Source of the DNA: Bilabrum cf. latius
Taxonomy: Eukaryota
Length of the DNA: 64,000 nt
Direction: 5' to 3'
NCBI GenBank assembly: GCA_965178125.1
Contig: OZ237737.1
Span: 806,001-870,000 of the forward strand
Below are positions 1 through 60,000 of this stretch, one piece after another (position 1 is the stretch's first letter; every line of letters begins with the position of its first letter). Under the pieces are notes generated by a model. That model did no database searches and was not told where the DNA came from. It worked only from the letters and a program-made list of their open reading frames with translations. The position numbers were made by a program, and so were the translations under genes.

Positions 1-3000
1 CTTGTGCCGCAGTGGGCGCGTTGAGCTGGGGCGCGTCATTGACGTCGTTGAGATCAACACGCACGATTGCGGTGTCTGTCTTGCCCTTCTTGTCGGTGAC
101 AGTGACAGTCAGTGAGTAGGTGGGGTTGGTCTCGTAGTTGAGCGAGGCCTTGTTCACCTTGAGGAGACCCTGGTTGCCCACGGAGGAGATCTTGAATGAG
201 CTGCCCGTATTGCCCGCCGTGATTGAGTACGTGAGAGTTTCGCTGCTGTCGGGGTCCGTGCCCTTCAGAGCCGTGCCCACGTCAGTGTTAACGGCAGAGT
301 TCTCGTCAACCTTGAAGCTGGCGTCGTCCAAGCTGGGCGCTTCGTTCACGTTCTTGACGTGAACGGTCCACGTGGAGGCCACAGACATGGGAACCAGGGC
401 GTTTCCCTGCGCGTCTGATCCGGGTACATCCGTGCACCGGATACCCAGCGTGTACTTGCTCTTTGTCTCGTAATCCAGCGTGCCAGACAGCTCAATCTTG
501 CCCGTGTTGGCGTTAATGATGAACATCTCCCCCGTGTTGCCAGAATCGATGAAGTACTGAACCGTGTGGTCGTCTGGGTCTGAACAGCTGGGGTTCTTGG
601 GCAGCTCCGTCTTGGAGTCCTCGTCTTCGTCCAGCTGGGTAGATCCCGAGCTCATCGTGGGAGGCTTGTTGCCTGCCGTGATCTCCACCGTAATTGTTTG
701 GGTAAACGACTTGCTCGGGCTGCCGTTGTCCGTGGCGACGATGTTGAATTCAACTTCGGCGGAGTTCTGACCATCAGGAAGCGGCTTGAGGTTGTCAAGC
801 ACGGTGAGCTGGCCAGTGGTCGAACCAATCGTGATGGGAAGGCGCGTGTAGTCACTCGAGGGCTTGATGCTCTAGTCAGCGGCCTTGATCGCCCACGTTA
901 CCTTCTACCCAGCGTCCGGGTCTGAGGCCACGAATGGCACGCCAATCTTGGTGCCGCTCTTGGCACTGTCGCCAACAGCCCTCTGGTTTGTCGAATCCGA
1001 GATCTCCGGCTCTTCGTTCACATCAGTGATGCGCACAGTGATGATGCCGGTGTCAGATTTCGTATTGGCGCCTCCCTCCACACCGTCCATGACGGTGACA
1101 GTGAGAGTGTACTCGCTCGTCACCTCGTAGTTGGGTGATGCGGCAACTTGCATCTGGCAGGTGCCAGCCTTGAAGGTGAAGGTGCCTCCCGTGTTGCCCC
1201 TCGACACGGCACACCGCACGCTGTCACCCTCCGGGTCAGTGGCCGGTAGCGCAGATCCCACGTTTGATCCAGCCGCAGAGTTCTCGGCGACAGTCAACGT
1301 GCGAGCAGCCAGCGAAGGCGCCTCGTCTGCGTCCGAAACAGTAATGGATACAGTTCCGGTATGGCTCAGTGCAGGGGACCCGGAATCCTGTACCTTGATG
1401 CCAAGGGTGTACCTGCTCTTGGTCTCGTGATCGAGGGCCTGCGCCACGCGGAGCTGGCCTGACAGCGAATCGATCGAGAAGCGGTTGTCCGAACCGGAGG
1501 TGATGCTGTAGAAGAGTGTCTGACCTTGATCGGGATCCGAAGCAGCAACCTTCGTGGTGCTGATCACGGCACCAATTGCCGTGTCCTCCTTGACCGTGAA
1601 CGACTGTCCCGACGTGAGAGTGGGCCTCTCATTCACGTTGTTGATGGCAATGCTCACAGCTCGCTGTCCTACCATACCCTTGCGGTCTTTTGCGATGACA
1701 GTCACGGACGCTGACTTGAGGGACTCGTAGTTCGGCGGCGCCTTTACCAGGATTTGCCCATCCGTACCCATCTTGAAGTAGCTGTTCGTTGTCATGGACC
1801 ACGTGAGTGAGGCCACATCCCCGGCATCCTCGTCCGTGGCCGTGAGCTTGTCCCCTACCTTGGTGTTCACAGCCGAGTTCTCGTTAATGCTGAGCACCTT
1901 TGATGGAGCAGCCACGACGGGAGGATCGGGCTGGTCGGTGACCTTGATGGTGAGCGTGGCCTTCTCGGTGTTCTTGCCGTCAGAGACGGTGACTCCGTAC
2001 GAGAAAGACGACTTGGACTCGTAGTTGAGCGACTTGCCAGCCTTGAGCGTCACAGCGCCCGAGGTGGACAGTGCGAAGACGTCCGGCGTGTCAGTACGGT
2101 GGAACGTGTAGCGAAGAGTGTCAGCCGGATCCGGATCCGACGCCTTGACGGTGGCGACAGAATCGCCACCACGGGCAGTCTCATCGGTGACCATCTCTTG
2201 GTCCTCAATGACGGGTGGGTCGTTCTTGTTGATGATGTTGACCTTGAGCGTGCAGCCCACCTTAATGGAGGACGTGGGGTGGTCGTCCCGCAGCCCGATG
2301 CGCATTGTGTACGACGATCGCTTGCCGTTGTCGAGGTCGGCGCCCTCCTTGACCGAGATCTGCCCGTCGCAAGCACCGATCTTGAAGGGCATGTTTGCCG
2401 TGTCAATGGACCAGATGAGACCCTGTCCCATGTCAGGATCGGAGCCAGTGAGCGCCTTCCCAACCTTCGTCTCGGCGGCAGCACGCTCCTCCACGCTGCG
2501 TGCGTTGCACTCTCCGATGCGCGGGGTCTCGTTCTTGTCTAGGACAGCCACCTGGACCTTGCACGTTTCCTTGTGAGCGTTCGAGTTCCAGTTGGCTTCT
2601 ACAGTTATCTCGAAATTGCGGCACTTCTCGTAGTCAAAGCCGGCTCCGTTGAGCCTGACCTTGCCCGACACCGAGTCGATCACGAAGGGGTTGCTGCGCG
2701 TGCAGGTCGACTCCTTCTTTGACTGGCTTCGGATGTAGTACCTGACCGAACCTCCGTATCCTTTGCTCGTTTGGATCGTGGCAGTGATACCCTCGACTGC
2801 GTTGGTGTCCACGTTCTTGAGCCAGTCGTTGGCAGCGTCCTCCATGACCTGCCTCTTTGCCTCGCCGAGCGGGCAGGCCCTGCCCCACACGATGGGCGGC
2901 ACGATCTCGCCGCTGAGGCACTTCTTTCCGGATGGGCAAGGGGACTCGCCCGTGCGCACGTCACCAGCAGCAGTAGTGGGAGTCGTGTAGTATCCATTTC

Positions 3001-4377
3001 GTACCTCCCTACGGGCTCCAGATCCGGACGGACAGTAGTAGAACACGTTACCGCACTTGTTCTGGCGCGGGCTGCGCGACCCTGCCGGGCAGTAGTAGCC
3101 TGCCTGGCACTGCCCCGAGCATGAGCTCGAGGCCAGCCCGTACGCGTTGCCCCACCTGCCAGCGGGGCAGATACGCTTCACGCCGCCTGTGCAGTAGTAG
3201 TTGGGAGAGTCGCACCGGGCGTAACTGTACCTGGTGGTGGTGCTCCTGGAGGTCGGGGTCGAGTAGTAGCCTGAAGGCACAGATCTGGCACTCGTGGATC
3301 CGGTGGGGCAGTACAGGTGGACACCTCCGCAGGCACGGTAGTTTGTGTTAGTCGTACCAGTGGGGCAGTAGTATCCAGCAGGGCAGGCTGCAGTACAAGT
3401 ACTGGACCGGCTCCCTCCCGATCCGTAGCGACCAGCCCTACAAGAGTAGCAAGTTGTGCCACCGTTGCTGCTTTGCCAGCGACCAGCGGCGCAAGTTGTG
3501 CAAGATCTGGCACTGGCAGCAGAATATCGACCGGGCGTGCAATATCCGCTGCATGTGGAGCTGGTCAGTGCGGTTGTGGTACCGTAGCGGCCGGCCGGGC
3601 AGCTCTGCGGACAGGGGCAACATGGAGCAAATCTGGGAGTTCTCTGTCTGGGATGCAAACAGCTGAAACAAATCAATTTTAAAACTCACCCTGCACGAGG
3701 AAGACCCGGCAGAACTCCACCGTCCAGTGCCGCAGCGATACTACGCTGACGACCGGGATCCCGCTCGGCAGTAGTAGCCGGCTCGGCAGGACTGCGAGGC
3801 ACATCGATAGGTATACAGAACATCAAACAATCCAGGAATGAGCGCAACAAGGTAGCAATTTTAAAATTTGCCTCACGTAGCAAGCTCGGTTATACGTGCC
3901 AGACGAGTATCGACCGGCAGGGCACGTGTATCTTTGGCTCATTCGACTGCTTGGGCAATAGTACCCCGCTGAACATGCGGAACAGGAGCTGGCACCACTC
4001 GAAGAGTATCTGCCAGCAACACAAGAGAAGCATGACGAGGACCTGTGCGAGTTGGAGGACATATAGTACCCTGCGCTGCACGTGTAGCACGAACGCTACG
4101 CGTATAGGTACCTGCCCCTACCACACGTCGGTATGTATCGCCTGCGCCGGCGACGTCTGCCCCTGCGCGGTAGAAAGTATACGCATACCAATTGTTGTGG
4201 CGGCAGTGGGTAGCTTTCTTCCTTTTCATCATTTTCTTGATCAAATCTGGAATCAGGGCGCCGACTCAATCATGCTAGGCGCCGTCCTCACCAAGCATCA
4301 GCTTCACCGAACAGAGAAATGAACAAGCTAAGTATAACTAGTATACTTAGTGCCCATGATGTATGTTTGTGGGGCAT
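1..4377 (-). CDS. Giant surface protein, 5' part: signal peptide, Cys-rich CPAGxYC repeats, then tandem cadherin domains; runs off the left edge
   Basis: ATG at 4377 gives a signal-peptide-like MPHKHTSWALSILVILSLFISLFGEADAW. GT-AG introns at 4163-4291, 3792-3876 and 3605-3689 join the exons in frame. Cadherin motifs DxNExP, LDYE/LDHE and AxDPD repeat from about 2550 to the window edge. In-frame TAG at 4096, 905 (DPDAG*KVTW, cf. DPDQGQ and DPDMGQ in the same protein) and 872; the frame continues past them as cadherin (TGQLTVL...VATDNGSP). Confidence 0.85.
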
Positions 4378-4535
4378 TAGGGCAATCTAGACCAGATGAG
4401 TGCTTGAGTGGTGCGAGCGGGCTCGGCTGGTGCGGTTCCGATCGAGACAAAATTCAAGTTGCGCGCTCAGTTCATGCCTCACAAGCGATTAACGGAGCAA
4501 CAAACCCCACCCGGCATTGTGAACCAAAAGCCAAA

Positions 4536-6755
4536 TTACGACGCAAGTTGCTCCAACGTTGCCAGGAATGCACCTACCGCTCCGAAATAGCCTTCGTGCT
4601 TCAGGAAAAGGCCTTCCATCTTGCCGCCCGACCAGAAGCGTATGGCATACGCGAGCGTCCGCATAGCTTCCTTATTCACCCCACAGTGCCGGAGAAAGTT
4701 TCCAGCGAAGACAATCCGGCTCACATCAAACCGAACCGCATTCAGGTACGCCACCTAGCCTATGTTGTTGGATACCATGAGCAGCAGAGCGCGGCATATG
4801 TCGCTACGTGCCGCTGCAGGCCTGCTCGGCAGCTTACTGCTAGGTCCCGTCTCATGCCTTCTGTTTGCTGCAGAGCCGCCTACTTCTTCATGTTCGACTG
4901 CTGTGGGTGACCTGGCAGACTGCATCACGACCCGCTCCCAGTCCTCCGTGGCAGCTCGTCTCCGATCGGCCACCACCCCTGTTCCAACCTTGTAAAAGGC
5001 AGGACCCAGCAGTGCTTCTTGTTGTTGGGGGTGCTACCGTTCAACACCAGCGGTAGAGCTCCCGTCGTGCAGAGTGCCCGCCGCCTGCGACTAGTTTGCT
5101 GTGCCGCCGTCCGAGTCTTCGATGCCGCCCTCGGTGGCCGCCTATTGCACCGAGGCACCGCTGTCTTCACCGTAGGCTGCTGACTCTTCGAACTCTGCCG
5201 CCGCGGCCGTATCAGCAGCCGATCCGACCTTGGCCCCGATGCCTCCGCTCGTCCACCTAGACGGGGGCGATGAATCCAGCGGCTTGGGAGCACCACCATG
5301 CGATGCACCCGATCCGATTCCAGATCCAGGCGCAAACTACCTCTCCTCCTCCTCCTCCTCGTCCTTAAAGCTGCCGCTAATACCATCGCCTGGCACTTGC
5401 TGCCTCGCCTGTCGCTACTTGTGCTGCTGCTTCTCCCTGTCTGCCGCCCGCGCGGCCGCCTTGACCCCAACCGACAGCACCTTCCCAAAGTTGCTAGCGA
5501 TGGTGCCCGCCGAGAGACCCACCACTCCGTAGTCGCCCCCATAAATGTCTCCCACGGTCAGGTCCACGTTCGCGTGATGGCCCTCCACCGCGGCCGTCAC
5601 CATGTCCTCGAAGCTGTCCAGGCCCGTGATCAGGTTCGCCAACCCAAAGAACGTTCCCCCGCCGATCGAGGTTCCGCTGACGCGGCGCCAGCTGGTTTCG
5701 CTCTCCACGAGCAGGATGCTCACCCCGCTGCCGATGTTTACGAGAAGGTAAGGGTACGGCCCGCTCGCTTGCGCCTAGCCACCCCGAGTGCACTCGCCTT
5801 TGCCTGAACCTCTCGGTGTCGCCGCCCCTGCCGCCTTCTGGTGGTCGGAGCTCCTGCCCGCCGCGGTCGATAGAAGCACCCTGGGCACCTCCGGGCTGCC
5901 CCTCTCCTCGCTCTCGAAGGTGTAGGCCTCCAAGGGCACGCTCTCGAGAAGGAAGGCCATCCCGCGGACCAGGCAGTCCAGCTCGTCCTGCGGCTTGAGC
6001 TGCACCCCGAGCGTCTGCTCCACCAGAGGGGCGAACTTTAGGCTGCCGCCACCAGTGGCGCACATGCTTCGCATGCTCTTGTTTAGGCCGTGCGCCCGGG
6101 CTAGCTGCAGGGCACCCCCGATGCGGCGCGTCTCGAACGAGACGAAGTGCATCGTGCCGCGCAGAAGCTCCGAGTGCAGCTCGAGCCTGGTCTCCCGCAC
6201 CCCCGTCCTGCCGAATCGCTGCCTAGATTTTAAGAACTGCGCAATAGATGAGACGCCTCCCTTCTGCGGGCTCTCTGGGTAGCTGTCGCTTGGGGAACCA
6301 CCGGCCGTGCGAGCAACCGGCGGCATGTCGCTAGCCGCCCTCTTAATCGGTGCGCCGGACAAGCCAGCTGAAGGCCTCGGGGAGTGAACTGGCGACGAGT
6401 CTCGCAACTGGGCGCGGGGCTCAAAGAATACAAGCTTGACGAGGCTGCCCCCTATATCCAACCCAAAGAATGCCCCGGTGTCGTCGATTCTGCGGAGTAA
6501 CCGAGCCACCGTCCTCGCATCACACGAAGGCAAGAAGCTAAGGCCAGCTGGTTTCAATCGATCCTTTGAGAGTGATTGCAAAGACTGTCCAGGAGCAGAC
6601 TTGGATCTTGCCATTGCTGGAGTGGACAAGTCACTCGCTGACCTTGATCTCGCCCCGTCAAGATCAACGCATCGAATCCGGCTTTGGCGCCATGATGCGA
6701 CGGTCACTGTAGCTAAAAGAAGTGCACTAAACAAGCACGAATCAAGGCTCTGCAT
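4536..6755 (-). CDS. PANK: Type II (eukaryotic, fumble-like) pantothenate kinase with low-complexity insertions
   Basis: Motifs GLDIGGSLVKLV, ATGGGS, ELDCLVRG, PYLLVNIGSGVSILLV, GTSIGGGTFFGL, DLTVGDIYGGDY, IASNFGK, SNNIG*VAYLNA, FAGNFLR and FLKHEGYFGAVGAFL lie in one frame. The frame is broken only by TAG at 5775, 5415, 5091 and 4755 and ends at TAA 4536-4538. Confidence 0.95.
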
Positions 6756-6958: not shown

Positions 6959-8011
6959 ATGCTGGTATTTCGCATGTTGTGTTTGGTTACAGCTTCGTTA
7001 TGTATCTCAGCTGCCTTTGGCTCCGAAACATGGCGCACTGAGCTGTGTGAAACAAAAGCAAGACTTTCGTTTGCCGATGGTGTTTCGTTCCTATCCAGCG
7101 CGTTCGTTGGAGGGAGCCAGTCTTCCCGCTGGGTTGCACCGTTCGTTCATGGGTACTCATCCAAATAGAATGCCAGCTGGTGGGCCTCTGTAGTGGCTCC
7201 CGGCATTCAGAATCACACTGCAGTTGTTGCAATCGACATGCCTGGCCACGGACTGACAGTGCCACCAGTGGGCCTAGAAAAGCGCATGTCAAGCGCAGGG
7301 AATGTTGCGGCGGTGGAAGCGTTTCTTCGTCGAGCGATCTCAGGGTCCTTGTCTGCGCCTCGAGCGGGTGCAAGGTGTCTTGATTCGGGAGGTAGAGTGC
7401 GGACTGGCCCCGAGATTGCGCCGGAGGACGCGGCTGAGGCCCCCGGACATCCTGGACCGGCAGCAGGCAGGAAGGAGCGCCTCCCTAAAAAAGATTTGGC
7501 TGTGCTTGTTGGGCGTTCATGGGGAGGGGGCGTGGTTCTTCGGACCTTGGCAAAGCTAGCCAAGCAGGCGCGGCCTCCACCCTCAGGGGGCTCCGAGAGG
7601 AGAGGCGAGGGCGGTGGAGGCTCTTCACCGAACCGGGGGGAGAATGCTGATAACTAGACGGAATCTAGTGAGCTGCTGGATTCGACGAGTCGAGTCCTAG
7701 ATTCGGTGAAATGCGTCGTTTTGGTGGCGCCAGCGGTGCCCCGGATCCTGCTGGAGCAGTTGCCCGCCCGCATCCGAGAGCTGCCGATGCTGCTGGTCTG
7801 GTCCAAAGATGACCCCGTGGTGCCATTCAAGAACCACGAGCGAGTATTGGAGGCTTTCACCGGCATCAAACGCACCCTGTTTTTTGACACGGTGGTGCCT
7901 ACTGATGCACCGCCGGAGGACCAATGGCGCGGACATGCACCGGAGCAATAGAGACCGGTTGAGTTCTAGGACGCAGTTCTGGCACTGCTAGACGCTGTCG
8001 AGCAGACTTAA
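6959..8011 (+). CDS. Alpha/beta hydrolase fold protein with predicted signal peptide (ABHD14-like)
   Basis: Hydrophobic N-terminus; FVHGY, AIDMPGHG, nucleophile elbow GRSWGG, LLVWSKDDPVVP (acid) and GHAP (His). One frame with TAG at 7166, 7655, 7949 and 7967; ends TAA 8009-8011. Confidence 0.85.
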
Positions 8012-14447: not shown

Positions 14448-14861
14448 GGCGAGGGGGATCAGTTGCAGAAACTCTAGTAGCTGAAGGCCTGACTTGCTTG
14501 CTTTGCCCTGAAGCTGGTGCGAGACCAGCCAAAGAACGAAGTTAATTGTGACTGAATGCTTCGGTTGATTTCCAAGGATCGGATCAAGGATTTTCAAACC
14601 GGAACACGATATTTCCAGGAATCCTCTCCACGGAAGACTCTGTGACGTGAGCAAGACTGCCAAAAAGACGCAGCTTCTTACAAGAGCGCGCGCGAAGTGG
14701 AAAGTAATCGCATGAAACCCCTTCGAGCAAGAACCGTTCCAAAGTTCCACGTGGTACTAGCAACCCATTGCACTGCTGCTTGCCGGCGCAACCAGGGCCG
14801 CAAGAGATCCGGATGACCCTACCGGCTCGCCACTACATTAACTGCCCGCAACTGCAATTCA

Positions 14862-47600: not shown

Positions 47601-48489
47601 GTTCTCTGCTCTGCTGATCAACCTGTCCGGCATCTGCTTCAACGCGATCCAGACTCAGTGCGAGATCGAGAACAACTGCGACTTCTTCCAGCCTCAGGTG
47701 GACACTCTGCTTGGCCTGGTGCTGACGCTGATCTTCACGTCCATCTTCTACTTCATCTTCGTGCTGGTGACGGAGATCTCATACATGTACCAGGAGGAGA
47801 TGGTGCGCCGCGGCAAGATGCGGCCGGACGAGCTTTAGACGCTGCCCGAGCAGATCATGGTGTGCTGCGGCTGCGCCGACGAGAACGCGCAGGCTCTGCT
47901 GGTGAAGCAGCGCAACATGAAGAACTCCAAGAAGGGCTCCTCCAAGCGCAAGCTCGTGGCCGATGCACTCGAGGCGCAGGAGGGCGAGCCCGCGGACGCC
48001 GACATGTCCGCCAACCCGATCTTCAAGCGCCTGGCCGAGAACGCCGAGAAGGACGCCGCCGCCAAGAAGGAGGACGCGGAAGACGGGCCCGTGATCGAGG
48101 AGATCCCCGACGCGGATGGGCGCGGCGTGACCGAGGCGGAGGCCCAGGAGATCCGGGAGCGCGCCCAGGTGGTGCTGCAGATGCGCAACCCGCCGAGCGG
48201 CGCATCGTGGGAGCAGATCCGCAGCAACTACGTGAACCTGTCCAAGCACATCGAGGAGCTGGCCCGTCAGATGCGCCGCGCAGGCGTGCAGGGACGGCGC
48301 GGATCGAGCTTGGAGACAGCCGCGGCAGGTGCTCGCCGCGGCCGCGCCGGAGGCAGGCGCGTCGGTGGCGGTGCTCGCGGTGGGGAGGGACGCAAGGCCT
48401 TTGGCCAGATGCAGACCACCTCCACCAGCGGGGCCACTGCTGACGGCGGCATGGTGAACCCCATGGCTGCCAAGAAGGGGGGCAAGTGA
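35691..48489 (+). CDS. Giant (~4,100 aa) surface receptor: signal peptide, ConA/LamG-like and Sushi-like domains, 2-3 cadherin domains, IPT/TIG-like repeats, Cys-rich region, about 9 TM segments, tail (paralogue A)
   Basis: ATG 35691 MLSFAIACIMAACAMAQLVP; several short 5' exons (donors gtgag at 35791, 36012 and 36172). Main exon 36820-48489 is one frame with TAG at 37867, 38584, 40624 and 47836 and stop TGA 48487. Cadherin motifs LDYE, DVDEPP and DRNDAP. The TM region resembles that of the 17707-35214 gene. Confidence 0.9.
37920..45622 (+). repeat. Copy 1 of a near-identical segmental duplication (partner 56298-64000)
   Basis: Landmarks match at a constant offset of 18,378 bp (38584/56962, 40624/59002). 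The ORF track shows identical shadow ORFs at the same offset. Confidence 0.95.
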
Positions 48490-49069: not shown

Positions 49070-52000
49070 ATGCAAATTCCTGAAACGCACGCGGCCCTCG
49101 CTGTCACATTTCTGATGCTGGTGGTGCTGTGGTCCAGTGACGTATTCGGTGCACCATCGATGGCATCCGCCGTGCTGAGCGGGAAACAGTCTGGTTCCAT
49201 GCATGCTGTTGAGACTATCATTTTGGGTGGCGGTCCAGCAGGCGTACAGTAGGCATTCTATATGCATGCGTCGTCGCGTCCGTATATGCTACTTGAAAAG
49301 CAACAGCACCTTGCATGGTTTTTCAGCCACTATCCAAAGTTTAGGAAGCTGATTAGCATAAACAAGAGATACACGACACGTGAGGAACCTGAATTTGAAC
49401 TTCGCCACGACTGGAACTCGCTGCTGCAAGACTTACCAGTTGGCACTAACCGGCATGAGCGTGATCATTCCGAGCCAGTGCTCAGCCAAACGTTCAGTTT
49501 TAGTGACGATTAGAAGCGCTTGGAATCTCTTCTTCACGATGGAAGTATGGGCCAGCTAGAGGTGGGATCCGATCACTCAGCAGCCTTCGAAGCAGCAGGA
49601 GTCCCACTGCTTTGGAATGGATCCTCAATCAATGGCCAAGCTGCGCCTCGTGTACTGATGAGACACATGAGCAAGGAGTTTTATCCTCACGCTGATGATA
49701 TGGCACGATATATCTAGCTATTTGCAGAGCGATACCGTCTGAATGTGGCCTACGGTGCCAGCGTTGAATCAGTCGCGAGCCTCCACGGGCAAGCAGCAAC
49801 TGCGGCGCGAGACCAAGCACGTCTCGATTGGATGCCTCGGTTTGAGCTTCTTCTTGAGAACGGCTCGGCGGCATCCTTCCCCAATGACCCCGGTATCACG
49901 CCGACCATCCGGAGGTTCGTCTGCAGGCACCTGGTGGTCGCAACCGGACTGAGCGAAGGCCACCTGAGCCCCGCCCACTCGGGACTGGCCAAGCACGGCA
50001 CCCGGTACGACGAGCTTAGCAGCAACCCTGACGAAGAATTCGAAGGGAAGCGCGTTCTCATCGTTGGCCGCGGCAACGCAGCCTTCGAGGTGGCCGACAA
50101 CGCCCTCCGCCGAGCGAGACAGGTGCACGTGCTCGGCCGCAAGACAGGAAGGGTCAGGCTCGCGTGGGAGACGCACTACCCGGGTGATGTGAGGGTGACT
50201 CACGCGGCGCTGCTCGAGACGTACATGCTCAAGAGCCAGGACGGCATGCTGGAGGCCAGCAGCAGCAGCGGTGCAGTGCTGTGCAGGGACGATGCCACTG
50301 GGCTGCTCACTTTAGACGAGAGGGGCTCGTGCGCCCATCATGACTCGCAGGGAGACCTGAAGCAGTACGACAAGGTTGTTCTGTGCTTGGGCTGGCGATT
50401 TCAAGAGGATCATTTCAGGCGCGGTGGGATGAGGCTTGGGATGGGAGGGCAGGTCGGCTGGAAGCGGCGGCAGGTACTTGCCCGAGCGATGCGGAACGAG
50501 GGGAGGGGACCAGGCCTGCTTGACACTGCCGCGAGCGATCCGCTCAACCTGCTGCCCCGGCGCCGTGGGTCTTTGGTAGGGTAGCAGCAATCAAACAGCG
50601 AGATGAGCGCAAGAGACGGTAGCCATGAGGCTACAACCGGCGCCTCGGGTGTACATGAGGACGACGATATGCATGGTACGGGCACCGAGCTTGACGATGA
50701 TGCAAGCACTCACCACGCAGATGCACGAATTGCGTTCGACGGACGCGGCCTGGTCTGGCGCTCGCCACAGGGACGACAAAAGTACCCCCCTATCGTGCCT
50801 CATGGCAAGTACCCTACTATGGACGGTGTGTTCAGGAGCCCGAAATACGCTGGCCTCCGGTATGCTGGCACTCTGATGCACGCGGGAGACTGGAGGGTTG
50901 CAAGCGGTGGGTTTGTTCACGGGTTCAGGTATTTGATTCGGGCTCAGGACCGGGTCATGCAGGAGGAAGCAGAGCACTCGCCGCAGGCGTGGCCTCGCAT
51001 GCGTCTGCAAGGGTTCGACTCCATACTGTATGCAATTAAGCGAAGGCTGCTTGTGGGTTCTGGCCTGTATCAGATGTTTGGTCAGCTGCAAGATGTCGTG
51101 CTCCTTGACCTTGACAGCCAGCTGTGGGGCGGCCCAGCCAATTCATGGGACGGACCGCCCAAGGACGCAGAAGCGATCCTGCAGCTTCTCGCCGAGGGGC
51201 GCTATCCTGACAGTGAGGACGAATCCCTTAGCAGTGTTGGTCAGGTATGTCGCCCTGAGATCGCGAGCCAGCTGTTGCAACACTTGCGCGGCACTCTGAA
51301 GCCGTCACCTGCCTCAATGGGTGGTTGGACGGACGATGTGGAGGAGGATGGGAAAAGTCGCAAGCCTGAGCCGGACAAGGCCTCTGTCTGGGACCCCAGC
51401 CATCACGACACTCCCGAATATCTGGCAAGGATGCCAAGCGACTTGTAGCGCGCAGCTGGAGGGTTCTTGTTCGAGGAGGTGCCCGTGCGATAGCTGCACC
51501 TGCTCGCCAGGAGGTGGTCCTTCCAACTGCAGGCGTGCGCGAGAGCAGTCTCGTGCGGCAGTGCGGCGGGAGCTGAGGGCTAGGTGTCCTGCAAGCGGAG
51601 CGGCCCTTCTCCAGACGGGCATTCCGTGTACGCGTCCGTCTCACTCGAATACGGGAGTGGCGCGAAACGGTAGAGCGCAGCAGCCGATTAGTCGGACGTG
51701 TTCTCTCTGCACCGGGCCACATTTAGCCATGATGACGCTACTATGGGCCGTTTCCTGCACCCTGTAGTCCGCGTGTTTGTCTCAGGACACCACACGCACG
51801 GTTTCACAGGCGACTACCATCGCAGCCCACATGGTGACGTGCTCCGTATGGCTCGAAGGCGCGCTGAAGGAGAGCTGTTTGGCATACGACACGACGACAG
51901 AGAGGACACCGCCTGGCAGCAGGGCGATCGCGATAAGCCAGCTGCGTCTACCAGCTTCCCGCCACCCGTTTCTGATGCTCCCTTGCTTGTGGCAGAGGTG

Positions 52001-53824
52001 CACGTGTCTGAGGATTTCAACGCGGAGTTCGTTCACATGGAGCCCTACGGCATGCAGATCGCGAGAGCGATACATGCAGGCGTGTCAACGCTGGTCAAGT
52101 CAGCAGCAGCCGCGAGGGTCGGAGAGATTGGCGCCGGGCTAGCTGCAGCCAAGATGGTGCAACATGTCCTGAACAATTAGCTGCGAAAGCAATTGCTGCC
52201 TCTTTTGGGCGGCGGTGTGGAGCTGACAGAAGGAGACACAGCCAGCACCGGAGCAGGCGTATTGGAGGGCACTACTAGCGGAAGGACGCCGTTGATGGAT
52301 GCAGGTCCTCTCGGCATTATGTCAGGGCTAGCGGCTGCAAGCGATGCAAGCCTGGTTCTTGCAGGTGCACTGCTTGATGGCTCTTCTCCTAGGCACCTCG
52401 AATCGTCAAGGGCAGCTGCCTACGACGCTTCGAGGTCGGTGGGAGCCGTGCTTCGAAGGTCCATGCAGCGCTTCGAGTGGTCCGTGAGGAGGCATTTACT
52501 GCCCGACCTGGCAAGGCGGCTTCCGGCTCATTTGCTGCCCCCTTCGCTGCCTGGCATCGATGATATCGCGCAGGACCACGCAAGCGGTGACGGGATGCCT
52601 GCACATGCAGGGGGGCACTCCACGGGTGGTGACCCGCACGAGAACGGCCTGGAGGAAGCGAGAGAGGCGTTGTATGTAGCTGTGCAGCACGAAAAGGCAA
52701 AGGAAGAAGAAATTCGCGGAAGCAGTCCGAGTCGCCGTGGTAGAGGTGAATCGCATGACCACAACCAGTTGCGCTACCCTGATGATGACCGGTACGATGA
52801 GTATCCCGCCGACGCCCCTGCCACACTGGACCGCGAGCTGCATGATGTGGACCGCGTCTGGAGCCGCCCGCCCAACTGGACCCTCTCTGGCAGCCATAGC
52901 GACGGTGGTCCTGGCTTTGGCATGGGACGCGGGCGCACGCGATCGCAGCTTCATCGGCCGGAGCAGGTGCACGTGCCCTCGATGTCGCGGGACTGGCTCG
53001 CAGGGGAGTTGGCGGCCGACTGGCTCAGCTGCGCCCTGAGGCATAGCCTGGCGGCTGTTTTGTGGGCGGAGGTGGGAGTGCATCGCACGAACGTGTCGAT
53101 CACGCCGGACCTCCGTTGGGCCGCCACAGGTGACGGCGGCAGCATCTCCCGCCCTGTGCAGGACCTTCTCCATGGACTGTGGCCCTCAAGTGGGATGCAG
53201 CTGCATGTGTGGCTAGATGAACCCTTGGACTACTCGTCGTTCAACCAGGGTGCGCGGGGGCTGGCGGCTCTGGAGGAGTCCATCCACTCGATGAGGCTCG
53301 GCGCCGCGGGCGAGCACGAGGCTGTGGAGCAGCTGCTCGAGCTGATCCGTGCGACGTCAGGGGTGCCCGTGGTCATAACTTCGCGGCATGCTTTGCATAC
53401 GTGTCCGTAGTACCCCTTCAAGCCCCCTTCTGCAACGAGGGATGCGGAGCTTTCAGGCAACAAGCGGCCTGCGGGTGGTAGCCGGTTTGCGGTCCGACTT
53501 GTCGACTTGTGGCAGCCTTGGCCTGGCAGTGGCACAGATGGAGCGTGTGATAACATGGAAAGGCATGCTGGGCGTGCGGCCGCGGAAGAATATATCGTGG
53601 AGGATGCGTCTTTGGCCCCCGCTCACGGCGTGGGACCCGACCACGGAGTACCGGAGCATGGGGCTCCAAAGGTGAACCCAGCGGGCGCATGCCTTGGCGC
53701 ACACGGAAGTAATCGCCCTGGAGACTAGACAGGCAGCGTAATTAGCAGAAGCATGTTGCATGTACGGGCATGGACAGGGCCCACCGAAGCAACGCGGCAA
53801 ATAAGGAAGCTAATCCGGAGCTAA
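49070..53824 (+). CDS. FOXRED2: FAD-dependent oxidoreductase, FOXRED2/ERFAD-like, with long C-terminal extension
   Basis: Signal-peptide-like start; ILGGGPAGVQ; YPKFRKLISINKRYT..EFELRHDWNSLL; VLIVGRGNAAFEVA; RLAWETHYPGDVR; SGGFVHGFRYLIRA; LYQMFGQL; FLHPV; HVSEDF. One uninterrupted frame with 12 in-frame TAG (49250, 49511, 49715, 50582, 51446, 51491, 51581, 51671, 51689, 52178, 53408, 53726), ending TAA 53822-53824. Confidence 0.88.
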
Positions 53825-54019
53825 AACTAACTTGCGACCAACTATACCTTGATCCGATCCGCAATTTTTTGGAGCAAACCGGGCAAGAAACATTTTTCGG
53901 CCGCCTCTGGTTGTCGTAAGCGCGGTTCTTCGCTGCGTTTTCGCTTCTCTGGGTAGTTTGTATATAAATAAGTTACATCTCTTGGCTTGATCCCCTTGAA
54001 AAGCTTTGGTTTCGGCTCA

Positions 54020-57000
54020 ATGCTGAGAATGACCGCTGGACTTGCGCTCGCCGCCACGCTAGTGGCGGCTGCGTTCGCTCAGTTGGTCCCAGACAAGGCT
54101 TTAGGAAGCAAGATGGTTGATTTTTGGGACAGTGAGGACTTTGGGTGCTGTGAAAGCTCTGGAAATATGGTATTTGCTGCGAGAATTTCGAGATACGGTT
54201 GAATCGGAACTTGAGTCTGCGAACGGCCAATTGCAATTCTACCCTTTTTCGTGACATTTCGCAGCGACGAAGTTCTCCAAGACTAGTACTCAGTACCCTT
54301 CCACATGGGAGAGCTGGAGGGGCCGCACTATGTCTTAGGTGAGTAGATTGCCTCGAATGAGATGCATCTCGGTGCTCGGCAACATCGCTCATGGTCGTGG
54401 TGATGCTTTCCTTGCCATTTGTGTCGCAGTCGAACTCCCGCAATCGCCCCCGCACCTACACGCGTCGTTTAAATTGCCAACCGTAAGTTACTTGGGCGAA
54501 GATTGCTGAATGCCTCGCACAATGTTGCTATACTGCCTCAAGTGAACCAATGTTCCTGTGGGCGTCACGGTCGGTTTCGATTTTTCATCGCCCAATAGAA
54601 CGAATGGTTTAATGATTATCTGAATCAATAATTAATTTTCGTCTCTCTCGCAGGGGCATGTTTTTCGATTCGTTAGGCAACAAGTTCATGACAACCCCAA
54701 GCGACGACCAACTGGATTTGAAGGGTTCCGGTTAGCATGTGAGATTGGTCGCTTGATTCGCGCTTGAGCAGCTAAGCCAATGAATGTTTTCAGATTTGTG
54801 TAGATTTGATATGTACTATACTGTGCCGGCTTATATTCGCAGGGGCACATCATATATGTGGTCGGAAGTTCGTGGTACTCCACTACGCGAGGCACCATGC
54901 TGCGCAAGGGCCCGCCTGTTGGTGCTCGACGCACTTACTGGGAGATGTTCCAGCAGCTCTCGACGTCTAGCCAGCGTTTTGGCTTCGTGGCGTCCTCTGC
55001 CTACACAACTAATGCGCGTTACACGGGGGCCCAGACCCTGCCCAACTCCCCAAGCTCGGTACAGTACCATGTGTACATGGGCAGGATTTGGGTGCGCCAG
55101 TACACCGGCGGAGTGAGTTGAGCTCAAGCACATCCCATCGCTTTTACTTTTTCTTTGCTTTTTAATGTATTTGACACTGCTCAATGCCCGTCTGTCCTTC
55201 TCGCAGAGGCGGTACACGTACATTTACGCTGAGATCGATTTCAGCACGTCAGGCCTCCAGTACGGTGGCGTTGACTACGCCGGAAGCTACTACTACTACA
55301 TCTACCAGCCGTCAGCATCTACCACGGACCAAGCACGCACTATCTCAAGCGGAAGTTCGTACCCTCTGCAGGTGGGCGCGTCCTACCGCGGGTTCGAGGG
55401 CCTAATGATGGAGTTTGGGATCATGAACTCGTCGTCCAGCACTGATGAGAACCGGCTGCGTTCGTACCTCGGCACCAAGTGGGGCACCGGAGGCTGCCCT
55501 CCAGCTGACGCTGTCACAAACGGTCATGGGATTGTCGCTACTACTAGCTCGGACTACTACTGCCGAGTGCCATTCGAGAACAGGGAATGCTCCCAGGCGT
55601 GCGCGTCTGGCAAGGGAAAGCCCGTGGGTGGAGTGGCTACCAAGACATGCCAAGACTCCCAGTGGACCTCCCACGACCTGATCTGCGAGAACACTTGCGA
55701 GATGACCGAGGGTCCCGCCTTCACTGCCGGCTGCTACCGCACCGTTGTGTCGGCCGACTTCAACGGCAATGACGTGCTAAATGGCCCAATGCGCACCTTC
55801 CGCCTGTTCCCTCGGACCAGTTCTGCCCTGACTGCCGCATACATGTCTGCCTCTTCCGACGGCCGACTGAAGATGGACCCTAGGCAGTGCACTTACACCA
55901 CCGTCTACTACGCCGAGGACAACCCAGCGTGGCTCGACACCGGCGACAGCCAGCAGACTGTGACCGTGGAGGCCACCATGCAGCTCGAGTACGGCTACGG
56001 TGGCCTTGCATTCAAGATGACCGATGAGCGCACCATGATGCGCGTGCAGTACACCTACTACGGATCCACATGGTGGTACCTTTACCTGATCATGCAGGTC
56101 GGTGGCAGGTACACGTATCTCGGCAGCATCTACTACTACACTCGTGATAAGCCCCCGATCTATGTGCCCCAGCGCATTGCTGATGCTCGCTTCAACGGCT
56201 ACCGCAACATCACATTCGAGCAGTTCTTCGACGATGCCAAGGAGCAGGCTCGCCTTGCTGGTCACGGCAACCGCCACGCTGAGTTCATCATCCGTGCCCG
56301 CGTGAAGGCCCAGAACGTCAAGGTGTGGCTGCTGCCCCTGGATGCCACCCACGGCATGGCCAAGGAGGGCGCCACCTCGGACACCCATGAGGTGCGCAAC
56401 GACATCGACAGGTACTACGGATATGATGGGCAGTTCTCGCCGCTGTGGGGACCTCAGAATGGGCTTAGGAACAAGGATGGTGATGATGCACCCGACAAGA
56501 TCTTCACGGCCAACGAGGAAGAGACCCTGGACGACACGAAGCCTTTGTGGGAGTTCAACCGCAACGACATCCAGGCTGGTACTGCCGGCATGTACGTGTA
56601 CGGCACTGCCTACTTCGACAACTATCGCGTCTCGACGTCTTGTGGTGCCGGCAGGTCATGCCTGAACGTGCGAGGGTACAAGGGCAACGGGTGCACGTGG
56701 GGCTGCGCCGAGGGCTTCCTGCCCAAGAACGTGTCCGAGCAGTCTGCCATGTGCAACCATGAGGGCAACGGAGAGGTAGCCTGGTCGAGCCAGGGCGTGC
56801 AATGCAAGCTGATTCCGCCCACCTTTGACTCCAACCACCCGCCGCTTGAGGTCCGCGAGGACGCCACCGCAGACACCCCGATCGGGCTGCCCATCGCTGA
56901 TTCCGTGACTACCAATGCATCCGATGCTATCACGCTCATCTACAACCTGACTGATGGCTACTAGGATGACAATGGCAACACGCTGTTTTACATCAGCGGC

Positions 57001-60000
57001 TGCAGCGGTCAGGTGTACCTGGCTCGTGGACGCACCCTCGACTACGAGACGGACCCTGTCAAGTTCATCACAGTGCGTGCCACCCCTTTGCAGCAGCCCG
57101 AGCAGGGAGCCGAGTTCCGTATCCCGGTGTACCTTATCGACGTGGACGAGCCCCCGCTGTTCATTGAGCAGATGAACTTCACCCAGGCGATCCGGACTGT
57201 GCCCGAGAACGCTGCCCCTGGGTCTGCCTTCCCCGACGCGAAGCTGACGGCTATCGACCCTGAGGGCAAGGACGAGGACACGGAGTACTCGATCTTCTCG
57301 ATGGATCAGGATGCTGAGGTGGGTGGCCCCGACGGAGAGCCACTGTTCACGATCGACCCTGATGACGGCACGCTGCACGTGGGTCCTGCCGGCGGGCTGA
57401 GCTTCGAGCGCTTCAGCGAGTACAAGCTGCAGGTGCGGGCCACTTCGAAGGTGAATGCCGCTATCTTCTCCCAGATGGCTGTGACGATCCGTCTGGAAGA
57501 TCGCAACGACGCCCCGATGTTCCCCGAGGACATCCAGGAGATCACGGCTCGCTTCTCGCAGCTGGCCGACATGGCCTGGGTCGGCACCGACACGATCGCT
57601 GTGGAGGACGAGGACGTGAACTCGACTGTGTTCGTGCAGCTGCTGCAGAGCTCCACCGGAGTGGTGCATCGCGACCTGCCCGGGCCTGGCTCAGACATCA
57701 CTCGCAAGAACTACGTGGGCATCGAGGGTGGAGAGCCTGGCAACGCCACCGCTGGTCGCTTCTACTGGACTGAGGCGCCCAACGCGACCGCCGATATCAG
57801 CTGGACGGACCAGATCTACGATGGTCAGTTCGTGCGCCTGGTGTACACCGTGAAGGTGAACGCCACTGACAACTACGGGGCCACGACGATCGGCGACGTG
57901 CGCATCATCCTGGTGTCCGACGAGAGCGGCGGCACTGACAGGCCGCTGGTGGAGTCCGTGACTATGCCGACTGGCACCGCCTTGACCACGTCTGGTGGCG
58001 AGACCCTGCGTTTCGCCGGATCTCGCTTCTCGCGGGCCACTAGCTTCCGTGTGGTGGGCACGAACGCGATCGGACGCAGGTACGAGACCACCAGCTGCAC
58101 TGCCCCCGACGACAACACCCTGAACTGCGCAGCACCCGAGGGCACTGGTCTGTGCAACTGGGTGGTGTACGCGATGGTGAACGGCGAGGAGATCCGCAGC
58201 TTTGCCATCGGGCGGATGGAGTTCACGTACCAGGCTCCCAACATCACGGCCGTGACCATGGACCAGGTGGCCATCAATGCAGGTGGGCTGAACACCAAGG
58301 GCGTGGGCTCTGGGTCTTCGCATGAGCTGAACAGCAAGTTCGTAATCACTGGCACTGACCTGGGCAGCGACCCGCAGGCTGTGATGGTGTACGTGGGCCG
58401 GGTGACCCCTACCTCTAGCGAGTACCGGTTCGTGTCAACGTCGATCGAGAGCGCCGACCATGGCTCTCTGCTTGTGGGTGCCCCTGAGGGCATCGGTGCT
58501 GAGCTGCACATCCGGGTATCTGTGGGCGGGCTGATCGTCGATGCGCCCGACAGGCAGACCGTGACGTATGCTCCTCCTCGCGTGATCAGCCTGCGCTCTG
58601 GCATCACGAGCTCGTACACGTACAACCACAACATGGAGCCGGAGGGGTGGTCGTGGGAGGCCGAGTACCAGACCAGGTACGACCAGGAGATCGCCCGTGG
58701 CGACACTCATGAGCAGGCACATGCTGATGCTACCAGGTATGCTGACTCGAGGCGCATCTGGAACCGGTTCATCATCACCGGCGAGAACTTCGGTCCCATG
58801 GAGGTGCTTGGAGCTGAGACCAGGCCGCTTGTGTACTTCGGCCCCGACTGCTCCAGGCAGTTTGAGCTGCTGAGCTGCGAGCTTACCCAGGCATCCACCC
58901 AGATCACGTGCGAGGGATATACGCGCGGTGCTGGCGCCCGGCACGGCCTTTCTGTCACGATCACCGACAACACGAACGTGGTGCTTGCGCCTGACATCCT
59001 GCAGGACGAGCAGTGCAGCCACGAGGAGAGCACGCTGCCGTCGACCAACATCGTGTACCGGACCAGGTCGCTGTCGTACAGGCCGCCCCAGGTGTATCAG
59101 CTCATCAACCCGCCTCAGCAGGGCAACACTGCCGGTGGCGATGTGGTGCGCATCCGTGGCCGGTACTTCGGGAACCCCAGCTCCGAGCTGCCCGTGACGG
59201 CGTACTACGGCCCTGACCCTGTCTACCGCTGGCCCAACTACCCTGGTGACCAGCTGAAGGCGACTGCCGGTACTGAGTCCATCGAGGCGTCCACCTGTGT
59301 GGTGCGCAGTGACGACATCATCGACTGCCAGATGGCAGCTCTGCCTGAGTGGATGGACGCCAACGGCCCGCATGCATGGACCGTGGAGGTGGGTGGCCAG
59401 GTGGCTCTGTGGAGCCGTGGCTTCACCCGGTACGGTTTCCCCACTGTGACTGGGCTGACCGGCGAGGGTGCTGTGCGCGCCAACACCACGGGTAGCCAGA
59501 AGGTGGTGATCGATGGCCGCAACTTCGGTCCCGTGGTGCCCGACACGGTGAACTACATCGCGCAGGTGGCAGACCCGGGAGGCATGAACTCGACCTACGA
59601 GGGTCGCGTGAACGTGTCGCTGGCCCAGGGCCTGACCATGGCCCCTGCGCCCGCTCTGGGCGATGGCTCTGGCCTGGTGGTGCTGGACCCCCGTCGCGAT
59701 TGCGTGATGACACAGGCGCACTACCAGCTGGAGTGCATGACCCTGCCTGGCGCTGGTCGCGCCCTTGAGTGGATCGTGGTGGTGAATGGTGAGCGGTCTC
59801 GCGTGCCCCAGGCATCGTACAAGGCCCCGACCGTGAACGAGATCATGATGCCCGGCACACCCACGGACCGTCGTGTGGAGGACGCTGATTCGGCTGGCGG
59901 CACCTGGGTGCTGGTGACTGGTCAGAACTTGGGCCCCCCCACCCGCGATATGTATGACCCCGAGCAGTCGTCCGGTGCGATGGTGCAGTGGGTGGAGTAC

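What the first reader, a model, noticed from the sequence alone, without database searches (positions are those of the whole stretch)
872..59004. Non-standard nuclear genetic code: UAG is a sense codon, most likely glutamine
Seen: about 50 in-frame TAG codons across 9 of 10 genes on both strands, and every frame resumes in the same phase and domain afterwards. No internal TAA, TGA or frameshift was needed to reconstruct any main exon. The 15.7 kb exon 19480-35214 alone has 19 TAG and no other stops. Established: stop-to-Gln reassignments are known in ciliates, diplomonads and some green algae, usually for UAA and UAG together. Inference: this genome translates UAG as Gln (equivalent to translation table 15). 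I do not recall such a code reported for a GC-rich, stramenopile-like nuclear genome, but I cannot confirm novelty or taxon.
Basis: partly seen in the sequence, partly recalled or inferred. Interest (0 to 1): 0.97.

Follow-up and report, generated by a model that had tools for sequence, protein, structure and literature searches.

The report
UAG read as glutamine, stramenopile-like genome
In this piece of a marine protist's nuclear genome the usual stop signal TAG sits inside nearly every gene and behaves like a codon for glutamine, a known but rare variant of the genetic code that seems not to have been reported for this branch of life.

Summary
Eight gene spans (17,473 codons, both strands) contain 51 in-frame TAG. 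The only TAA (3) and TGA (3) are terminal. Off-frame rates would predict about 42 TAA and 419 TGA. The 19480-35214 exon has 19 TAG and ends in TGA.

TAG is not an assembly error. Contigs from a second study with 0-1 differences cover TAG sites. An independent metagenome contig (L001) has 4 TAG and no TAA/TGA in 1,279 open codons.

TAG behaves as glutamine. In two homologue comparisons, 7 of 9 codons opposite a TAG are CAG. None encodes Ser, Leu, Glu, Trp, Tyr or Lys. Purifying selection continues downstream of TAGs (pN/pS 0.04-0.10). Conserved Gln columns carry TAG (41/54, 63/120).

Distant-homologue columns alone do not separate Gln from Ser, and two conserved columns favour Leu.

The closest named homologues are from Cafeteria roenbergensis, a stramenopile.

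This matches NCBI table 15. That code is known in a few ciliates and in Iotanema. Seven literature searches found no stramenopile nuclear case.

The tRNA-Gln(CUA), eRF1 and peptides could not be examined because no genome is held.

The parts
2..3685 (-). Gene A: cadherin-repeat surface protein that runs off the window. It has 2 in-frame TAG, with first bases at 907 and 874.
   Evidence: Pfam Cadherin E 1.2e-80. TAG positions. One TAG falls in the D-x-D-x-G-[Q/D] column of the internal cadherin profile (D 9, Q 7 of 31).
4536..6617 (-). Pantothenate kinase gene. It has 7 in-frame TAG (5777, 5417, 5339, 5144, 5093, 5036, 4757) and a TAA stop.
   Evidence: Pfam Fumble E 3.3e-104. The TAG at 4757 sits in NNIG-X-VAY, where 120 homologues have Q 63 and S 57. 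The conserved C-terminal segment aligned to human PANK1 lies downstream of it.
6959..8011 (+). Alpha/beta-hydrolase-like gene. It has 4 in-frame TAG (7166, 7655, 7949, 7967) and a TAA stop.
   Evidence: Pfam Abhydrolase_6 and Abhydrolase_1. Translation; positions.
9800..14458 (-). EF-2/EFL1-like GTPase with long insertions. It has 2 in-frame TAG (12505, 9862) and a TGA stop.
   Evidence: Pfam GTP_EFTU, EFG_IV and EFG_C. PDB matches to eEF2 and EFL1. Both TAGs lie in poorly conserved stretches.
14862..16985 (-). Choline-transporter-like gene with introns. It has no TAG in recognisable exons and a TGA stop.
   Evidence: Pfam Choline_transpo in two stretches. The middle exon lies in another frame at 15680-16126.
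18650..35214 (+). Gene F: giant surface protein made of a Cys-rich part, cadherin repeats, IPT/TIG repeats and a multi-pass membrane C-terminus. An upstream Cys-rich exon (18650 to about 19340, other frame) precedes the 15.7-kb exon 19480-35214, which has 19 TAG and a TGA stop.
   Evidence: The metagenome homologue L001 aligns without gaps to aa 3607-4885. The TAG at 29410 lies in the V-G-G-Q column, where Q is 41 of 54.
36748..48489 (+). Gene G: giant IPT/TIG surface protein. It has 4 in-frame TAG (37867, 38584, 40624, 47836) and a TGA stop.
   Evidence: In its paralogue I, two of these sites are CAG and one is TAG.
49070..53824 (+). Flavin-monooxygenase-like (Pyr_redox_3) gene with a long C-terminal extension. 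It has 12 in-frame TAG and a TAA stop.
   Evidence: A fragment from a close relative (P0201) ends exactly before the TAG at 51446.
55117..63999 (+). Gene I: near-identical tandem paralogue of G that runs off the window. It has 1 in-frame TAG (56962). It has CAG at 56245 and 59002, where G has TAG.

Best explanation
This is nuclear DNA of a GC-rich (57-66%) marine protist, probably a heterotrophic stramenopile. In it, UAG is an ordinary, rarely used sense codon for glutamine, while UAA and UGA still end translation (the code of NCBI table 15).

Shown here:
- TAG is tolerated in frame at the same rate as out of frame.
- TAA and TGA are excluded from frames and close every complete gene.
- Selection on the protein continues after TAGs.
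- In homologues, TAG is exchanged with CAG in the same way that CAG and CAA are.

Inferred, not seen:
- A tRNA-Gln whose anticodon changed from CUG to CUA reads UAG. By wobble rules it would not read UAA.
- The release factor eRF1 has lost recognition of UAG.
- In a GC-rich genome where TGA is the commonest stop, UAG stops could have become rare enough for the change to be tolerated.
For: 1. Frame statistics. There are 51 in-frame TAG in 17,473 codons of 8 genes. No TAA or TGA is internal, against about 42 and 419 expected at off-frame rates.

2. Control codes. Reading TAA as a residue joins nothing, and neither does reading TGA as a residue.

3. Gene ends. The 7 complete genes end in TGA (4) or TAA (3) and never in TAG.

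4. Not an assembly error.
- Zero-difference contigs of run X1 cover 8 of the 19 TAGs of the big exon.
- Contigs of run X5 (another study, another organism label) cover 4. Three of those are in zero-difference pieces and one is in a piece with a single difference.
- Metagenome contig L001 is open for 1,279 codons with 4 TAG and no TAA or TGA.

5. Residue identity from codon partners.
- F and L001 share 82% of residues but only 73% of bases. TAG's partners there are CAG at 5 sites, TAG at 1 site, ATG at 1 and GCC at 1.
- That matches known Gln codons. Of 64 partner codons of CAG, 47 were CAG, CAA or TAG. For CAA it was 8 of 12.
- Other codons pair with their own synonyms: TCG 34 of 48, TTG 17 of 20, GAG 119 of 152, TGG 32 of 33.
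- Between paralogues G and I, TAG faces CAG at 2 sites and TAG at 1.

6. Conserved Gln columns carrying TAG: Q 41 of 54 (V-G-G-Q of the TIG repeats), Q 13 of 34, and Q 63 of 120 in pantothenate kinase. In the cadherin D-x-D-x-G column, Q is 7 of 31, and TAG falls there twice.

7. Translation continues past TAGs. pN/pS is 0.10 for G versus I downstream of G's first TAG, with 26 synonymous against 4 replacement differences after its third. It is 0.04 for F versus L001.

8. Codon-usage behaviour. TAG's share of Gln-like codons falls from 0.36 to 0.008 as GC3 rises from 0.58 to 0.81-0.83. That is what a non-preferred synonymous codon does, as CAA also does.

9. RNA hint. One contig of a seawater RNA-seq library (X13) reads, in register with F, Y-E-T-T-T-TAG-Y-V-V-Q against the window's Y-E-E-A-T-CAG-H-V-L-T.

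10. Mechanism. The argument that a CUA anticodon uncouples UAG from UAA is taken from passages of PMC11687900.
Against: 1. Distant homologues alone do not prove Gln.
- Over 34 TAG columns the log-odds put Ser first or second: S -1.1 against Q -5.5 at pseudocount 5, and Q 3.7 against S 2.0 at pseudocount 20.
- Most TAGs lie at variable positions.

2. Two conserved columns of the FMO-like gene favour Leu or Met: L 58 and M 31 of 128, and L 11 of 17.

3. In moderately close homologues the partner residues are mostly not Q.
- M, S, A and D at 62-65% identity.
- E at 85% identity.
- K, E, R, A and Q at 47% identity.

4. No tRNA gene lies in the window, and no whole genome is held. The decoding tRNA and eRF1 are therefore unseen.

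5. RNA evidence is a single contig of a relative, from a library that may contain DNA.

6. Only 7 gene ends were available, so occasional use of TAG as a stop is not excluded.
Confidence: 0.87

Rival explanations
1. UAG is a sense codon but stands for another residue. Serine is the most plausible (as reported for the green alga Scotinosphaera). Leucine is a second candidate (as in an uncultured rhizarian and some ciliate MAGs).
For: In the distant-homologue column test, Ser ties with or beats Gln. The pantothenate kinase column is Q 63 / S 57. Columns F3241 (S 13 of 35) and F3625 (S 15 of 54) lean to Ser. Two conserved FMO-like columns lean to Leu. Precedents for UAG=Ser and UAG=Leu are named in passages of PMC11687900.
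Against: No Ser or Leu codon appears among the 9 codons that face a TAG in the two homologue comparisons, and 7 are CAG. In a masked control, true Ser codons gave a Q-minus-S score below -10.5 in 95% of 300 subsamples of 26 columns. TAG scored between -4.0 and +8.9, within the range of true Gln codons (5th to 95th percentile, -5.2 to 26.4). Leu scores -19.7 over 34 columns. The V-G-G-Q column (Q 41 of 54) fits neither residue.
Confidence: 0.05
2. UAG has two meanings. It is Gln inside genes and also a stop at some gene ends, depending on context, as in the ambiguous codes of Condylostoma or the karyorelict ciliates.
For: Only 7 gene ends could be examined, so rare TAG termination cannot be excluded. 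Ambiguous codes exist in other protists (abstracts listed).
Against: None of the 7 gene ends is TAG. TAG occurs 31 codons before the TAA stop of the FMO-like gene and 72 codons before the stop of pantothenate kinase, so it is not kept away from 3' ends.
Confidence: 0.06
3. The TAGs are not translated as such. They could be sequencing or assembly errors, nonsense mutations in pseudogenes, or sites restored to CAG by U-to-C RNA editing.
For: CAG to TAG is a single transition, so errors, decay or editing would all tend to put TAG where relatives have CAG.
Against: The same TAGs are found in contigs from other runs and studies. An independent metagenome relative has its own TAGs at other sites. 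Decay would also give TAA, TGA and frameshifts, and none is seen in 17,473 codons. pN/pS stays at 0.04-0.10 after TAGs. Editing of first-position U should equally rescue TAA from CAA, yet no TAA is internal, although CAA makes up about a tenth of the Gln codons. One RNA-library contig keeps TAG.
Confidence: 0.02

Closest known systems
Nuclear code with UAG=Gln only (NCBI table 15): Iotanema spirale (Fornicata) and the ciliates Hartmannula sinica, Trochilia petrani and Protocruzia tuzeti. These are named in passages of PMC11687900 and in the listing of PMC5304391.
   Same: UAG alone is reassigned to glutamine, and UAA keeps its stop meaning. The evidence is of the same type: in-frame UAG at Gln positions.
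   Different: The lineage differs: it is stramenopile-like by its closest named homologues. The DNA is 57-66% GC, whereas the ciliate assemblies in that paper span 27-54%. TGA is the commonest stop here (4 of 7 gene ends), whereas UAA dominates in those ciliates (passages).
Ciliate, dasycladalean and hexamitid code (NCBI table 6): UAA and UAG are both Gln.
   Same: A stop codon is reassigned to glutamine. A tRNA-Gln-derived suppressor is the presumed agent.
   Different: TAA is never internal here (0 in 17,473 codons) and ends 3 genes.
UAG=Leu in an uncultured rhizarian and in TARA phyllopharyngean ciliate MAGs, and UAG=Ser in Scotinosphaera (passages of PMC11687900).
   Same: UAG is uncoupled from UAA.
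   Different: Partner codons and the best-conserved columns point to Gln, not Leu or Ser.
TAG-to-Gln recoding in crAss-like and Lak phages, also called code 15 (abstract of PMC9523058 and listing).
   Same: The codon and the residue are the same.
   Different: These are eukaryotic nuclear genes with introns and eukaryote-type families: pantothenate kinase type II, eEF2/EFL1-like GTPase and cadherin/TIG giant proteins.
Cafeteria roenbergensis (bicosoecid stramenopile), the source of the closest named homologues of the giant proteins.
   Same: It has giant cadherin + IPT/TIG proteins with the same C-terminal membrane module (4 proteins, 28-34% identity). From recall, its genome is GC-rich and intron-poor.
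   Different: From recall, not tested here, Cafeteria is treated as using the standard code. Identity is low, so the window's organism is not a close relative.

Membership tests
NCBI translation table 15 (UAG=Gln; UAA and UGA stop) | In-frame UAG inside genes that remain under protein-level selection | tested here: met
   51 TAG in 8 genes. pN/pS is 0.04-0.10 downstream of TAGs. A conserved pantothenate kinase C-terminal segment lies after a TAG.
NCBI translation table 15 (UAG=Gln; UAA and UGA stop) | UAG corresponds to glutamine in homologues | tested here: met
   7 of 9 partner codons are CAG. Conserved columns show Q 41/54, 13/34 and 63/120. The distant-column log-odds alone do not separate Gln from Ser.
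NCBI translation table 15 (UAG=Gln; UAA and UGA stop) | UAA and UGA keep their stop meaning | tested here: met
   No TAA or TGA is internal. 3 TAA and 4 TGA sit at the 7 gene ends. The TAA=Q and TGA=W readings join no frames.
NCBI translation table 15 (UAG=Gln; UAA and UGA stop) | A tRNA with anticodon CUA and glutamine identity | not testable with these tools
   No tRNA was found in the window (ARAGORN; Rfam). No whole genome is held.
NCBI translation table 15 (UAG=Gln; UAA and UGA stop) | eRF1 altered so that UAG is not recognised, and peptides with Gln at UAG | not testable with these tools
   eRF1 is not in the window. No proteome data are available.
NCBI translation table 6 (UAA and UAG = Gln) | In-frame UAA as well as UAG | tested here: not met
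   0 internal TAA in 17,473 codons, against 41.5 expected at the off-frame rate.
UAG=Leu or UAG=Ser nuclear codes | UAG aligned with Leu or Ser codons in close homologues and in conserved columns | tested here: not met
   0 Leu or Ser codons among 9 partners. Ser is not excluded by distant columns alone. Two FMO-like columns favour Leu.
Ambiguous stop/sense codes (context-dependent UAG) | The same codon also ends genes | tested here: inconclusive
   0 of 7 gene ends use TAG. The sample is too small to exclude it.
Stramenopiles (taxonomic placement of the source) | Closest named homologues and marker-gene phylogeny place it there | tested here: inconclusive
   The named hits for the C-terminal module of the giant protein are Cafeteria (4), Hondaea (1) and Thecamonas (1, E 1e-4). 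Pantothenate kinase gave no informative named relatives. There is no rRNA in the window and no phylogeny was made.

The most novel reading that the evidence does not exclude
This would be the first stop-codon reassignment in a stramenopile nuclear genome. It would be an independent origin of the UAG-only-to-Gln code, in a GC-rich, TGA-terminating genome rather than an AT-rich one. The organism is a marine flagellate common enough that near-identical DNA (pieces with 0-1 differences) turns up in sequencing runs of three studies filed under three different organism labels. A more distant relative carries in-frame TAG in a separate ocean metagenome.
Probability: 0.55. Interest if true: 0.8.

Novelty: new member of a known kind. 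Interest (0 to 1): 0.72.

Why it matters
Nuclear code changes outside ciliates are few, and cases where UAG and UAA differ in meaning are fewer still. Each independent origin tests ideas on how a stop codon is captured.

This case would add a new eukaryotic supergroup branch. It would also add a GC-rich genome in which TGA is the main stop, which does not fit explanations based on AT pressure.

There is a practical side as well. Gene callers that use the standard code break 8 of the 9 genes seen here into pieces. The public protein collections already hold such pieces from relatives, for example a 124-residue 'protein' that ends exactly at a TAG. Annotation, orthology and metagenome binning of this lineage therefore need table 15.

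Tried and rejected
- **Whole genome.** None is held. I therefore made no genome-wide codon inference and no search for tRNA(CUA), eRF1 or 18S.
- **RNA genes in the window.** ARAGORN and Rfam found none.
- **Related loci.** The search for related loci gave one locus in metagenome contigs and none in genome contigs or viral contigs.
- **Names of relatives.** Cluster look-up of six unnamed relatives returned no organism names.
- **EFL1-like gene.** Both of its TAGs lie in unalignable insertions, so it gave no information.
- **Close ORF fragments of relatives.** The search across five TAGs of gene F returned only two proteins at 62-65% identity. The two TAG columns they covered were variable.
- **Read laying.** It laid contigs only. 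Just 40 of 784 differences were printed, none of them at a TAG. I therefore cannot say what the 90-95%-alike RNA contigs read at most TAG sites.
- **Unlaid runs.** The 15 runs that I did not lay are not used as evidence of habitat or distribution (12 of them marked as small shares).
- **First column control.** The unmasked control was biased, because BLAST sees the true residue. I replaced it with the masked control.
- **Pfam on leftover ORFs.** The call failed because one reference contained stops. I did not repeat it.
- **Protein Atlas.** It gave no result.
- **Literature.** Seven searches and passages of three papers turned up no stramenopile nuclear case. The library lacks most subscription journals, and supplements were closed, so a report could still exist.

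Full report
**What the window is.** The 64-kb window is 57-66% G+C. It carries eukaryote-type genes on both strands:
- a cadherin-repeat protein (gene A);
- a type II pantothenate kinase (Pfam Fumble, E 3e-104);
- an alpha/beta-hydrolase-like protein;
- an eEF2/EFL1-like GTPase;
- a choline-transporter-like protein with introns;
- a flavin-monooxygenase-like protein;
- three giant surface proteins (F, G and I) built of cadherin and/or IPT/TIG repeats, a Cys-rich part and a multi-pass membrane C-terminus.

No tRNA or other known RNA gene is present.

**Checking the observation.**
- Under the standard stops the long genes are broken into pieces of 300-900 codons.
- Reading TAG as a residue joins them into frames of 5,569, 3,913, 1,627 and more than 2,961 codons on the plus strand. 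On the minus strand it gives frames of 1,228, 743, 1,552 and 707 codons.
- Reading TAA as a residue joins none of them. Reading TGA as a residue joins none either. It adds at most a few dozen codons at an end of these frames and opens many off-frame ORFs.
- After trimming to the likely coding parts, 8 genes hold 17,473 codons with 51 in-frame TAG, 3 TAA and 3 TGA. Every TAA and TGA is the last codon of its gene.
- At the off-frame rates of the same DNA one would expect 58.5 TAG, 41.5 TAA and 418.7 TGA. TAG is therefore not avoided in frame at all, while the other two stops are excluded completely.
- The exon 19480-35214 has 19 TAG and ends in TGA, as reported.
- The choline-transporter-like gene is the one gene without a TAG in recognisable exons. 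Its only TAG lies where the coding frame has moved to 15680-16126.

**Not an artefact.** A public-run search found the stretch 19500-29400 in 19 runs from 13 studies. I laid four of those runs as contigs.
- Run X1 may be the source sample. Its zero-difference contigs cover 8 of the 19 TAGs.
- Run X5 comes from another study and carries another organism label. Its contigs cover 4 TAGs. Three are in zero-difference pieces and one is in a piece with a single difference at a place the output does not show.
- One scan of JGI metagenome contigs gave a single relative, L001 (3,838 bases). One of its frames is open over all 1,279 codons, with 4 TAG and no TAA or TGA.

**Which residue: close comparisons.**
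- L001 aligns without gaps to F residues 3607-4885. It shares 82% of residues but only 73% of bases, so synonymous sites are heavily diverged and the pairing of codons reflects residue conservation.
- At the 8 sites where either sequence has TAG, the partner is CAG at 5, TAG at 1, ATG at 1 and GCC at 1.
- Known Gln codons behave the same way in this alignment. Of 64 partner codons of CAG, 47 were CAG, CAA or TAG. For CAA it was 8 of 12.
- Ser, Leu, Glu, Trp, Tyr and Lys codons pair mostly with their own synonyms (TCG 34 of 48, TTG 17 of 20, GAG 119 of 152, TGG 32 of 33, TAC 39 of 45, AAG 19 of 25). None of them ever faces TAG.
- The tandem paralogues G and I add two TAG/CAG sites and one TAG/TAG site.
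- In all, 7 of 9 non-identical partners are CAG.

**Selection downstream of TAGs.** Purifying selection continues after the TAGs.
- For G versus I downstream of G's first TAG, pN/pS is 0.10. After its third TAG there are 26 synonymous and 4 replacement differences.
- For F versus L001 the ratio is 0.04.

**Which residue: conserved columns.**
- In pantothenate kinase a TAG sits in the motif N-N-I-G-X-V-A, where 120 homologues have Q 63 and S 57. The conserved C-terminal segment aligned to human PANK1 follows it.
- In the TIG repeats of F a TAG sits in V-G-G-X, where 54 aligned homologue residues are Q 41. Another F column is Q 13 of 34.
- In a profile built from 32 cadherin repeats of the window's own genes, two TAGs fall in the D-x-D-x-G-[D/Q] column (D 9, Q 7 of 31) and one falls in a Q 8 / A 8 column.

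**Results that do not point to Gln.**
- Most TAGs lie at variable positions.
- Over 26 columns the log-odds gave S 1.0, Q -1.3 and everything else below -10. Over 34 columns they gave S -1.1 and Q -5.5 at pseudocount 5, and Q 3.7 and S 2.0 at pseudocount 20.
- I ran a fair control in which the tested codons were masked before alignment. True Gln codons came out as Gln in only 205 of 300 subsamples of 26 columns, so the test has low power for Gln.
- In the same control, true Ser codons gave a Q-minus-S score below -10.5 in 95% of subsamples, while TAG scored between -4.0 and +8.9. That speaks against Ser.
- Two conserved columns of the FMO-like gene favour Leu or Met (L 58 and M 31 of 128; L 11 of 17).
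- Moderately close homologues show M and S at one TAG, and A and D at another, at 62-65% identity. One shows E at 85% identity, and another shows K, E, R, A and Q at 47%.
- These results are expected for a rare codon that sits mainly at tolerant sites. They also mean that the Gln assignment rests chiefly on the close comparisons and on a few conserved columns.

**Codon-usage behaviour.** TAG's share of CAG+CAA+TAG falls from 0.36 in the gene with GC3 0.58 to 0.008-0.025 in the genes with GC3 0.81-0.83. This runs in parallel with CAA. It is the behaviour of a non-preferred synonymous codon.

**Gene ends.** The 7 complete genes end in TGA (4) or TAA (3). TAG occurs 31 codons before the stop of the FMO-like gene.

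**A truncated public 'protein'.** A 124-residue predicted protein of a close relative (P0201, 85% identity) ends exactly at the residue before the window's TAG at 51446. This is what a standard-code gene caller would produce if that TAG is conserved.

**RNA.** Contigs of a seawater RNA-seq library (X13), 90-95% alike, lie over 29 of 30 bins of gene F. The printed loose end of one contig, read in register with F, is Y-E-T-T-T-TAG-Y-V-V-Q against the window's Y-E-E-A-T-CAG-H-V-L-T. This is a single case from a relative, and the library may contain DNA, so I count it only as a hint against U-to-C editing. A further argument against editing, and against decay, is that no TAA is internal although CAA makes up about a tenth of the Gln codons.

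**Who it is.**
- The C-terminal module of G found 51 proteins. The best (36-41% identity) are unnamed metagenome proteins.
- The named hits are four proteins from Cafeteria roenbergensis, one from Hondaea fermentalgiana and one weak hit from Thecamonas.
- Cluster look-ups added no names, and pantothenate kinase gave no informative named relatives.
- The source is therefore most likely a heterotrophic stramenopile distant from Cafeteria, but no marker phylogeny was possible.

**Mechanism.**
- Shown: UAG is read through as a residue that behaves like Gln, and UAA and UGA terminate.
- Inferred: a tRNA-Gln with anticodon CUA, one base away from CUG, reads UAG.
- Such a tRNA is not expected to read UAA, which explains why the two codons are uncoupled. 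This argument comes from passages of PMC11687900.
- Also inferred: eRF1 no longer recognises UAG.
- Neither the tRNA nor eRF1 can be examined without the genome.

**Comparison with what is known.**
- From passages of PMC11687900, UAG-only-to-Gln is reported for Iotanema spirale, Protocruzia tuzeti, Hartmannula sinica and Trochilia petrani. UAG=Leu is reported for an uncultured rhizarian and for ciliate MAGs, and UAG=Ser for Scotinosphaera.
- The code found here is therefore a known variant (NCBI table 15).
- Seven full-text searches and passages of PMC12560768 and PMC10767852 turned up no nuclear stop-codon reassignment in a stramenopile.
- The library lacks most subscription journals, and supplements were closed, so absence from print is not proven.

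**Verdict.** I put the probability that UAG is a Gln sense codon, with UAA and UGA as the only stops, at 0.87. This is a new member (a new lineage) of a known kind of code change. It is of high but not extreme interest.

Noticed in passing
36748-48489 and 55117-63999 (+): Two giant genes lie in tandem with the FMO-like gene between them. Of their 268 codon differences over 2,932 aligned codons, 184 lie in the first 450 codons. The remaining roughly 2,480 codons differ at only 84. This suggests a recent duplication or ongoing gene conversion that spares the N-terminal part.
   Followed up: partly
29980-34700 (+): The C-terminal part of gene F (last TIG repeats plus the membrane module) has several-fold higher summed contig depth than the rest of the gene in runs X1 and X5, and many contigs there are 90-99% alike. 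The module seems to belong to a large multi-copy family. Its named relatives are in Cafeteria and Hondaea.
   Followed up: partly
19480-35214, runs X1, X5, X12: Pieces with 0-1 differences from the window occur in contigs of runs from three studies filed under three different coded organism labels. The organism may be a frequent companion or contaminant of other protist or algal cultures.
   Followed up: no
4818-5468 (-), pantothenate kinase residues 433-648: A low-complexity insertion of about 215 residues, absent from nearly all of the 120 homologues, holds 5 of the gene's 7 TAGs. TAG seems to be enriched in fast-evolving, probably disordered segments.
   Followed up: partly
9800-14458 (-), residues about 115-545: The eEF2/EFL1-like GTPase carries an insertion of about 430 residues between the first G-domain stretch and the D-C-P-G-H motif. 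It also has further long Ala/Ser/Gly-rich insertions. The function of these insertions is unknown.
   Followed up: no
18650-19480 (+): Gene F has an upstream exon of C-P-A-G-x-Y type Cys-rich repeats in another frame. The same repeats form the N-terminus of gene A. A short intron appears to follow before 19480, and a TAG at the end of that exon's frame lies where the exon's frame gives way to the presumed intron.
   Followed up: partly
49070-53824 (+): The FMO-like gene continues for about 1,100 codons beyond its flavin domains with no Pfam match. It stays free of TAA and TGA there, and relatives conserve parts of it at 79-85% identity. It has the second-highest TAG density of the window's genes (12 in 1,585 codons; the small hydrolase-like gene has 4 in 351).
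   Followed up: partly
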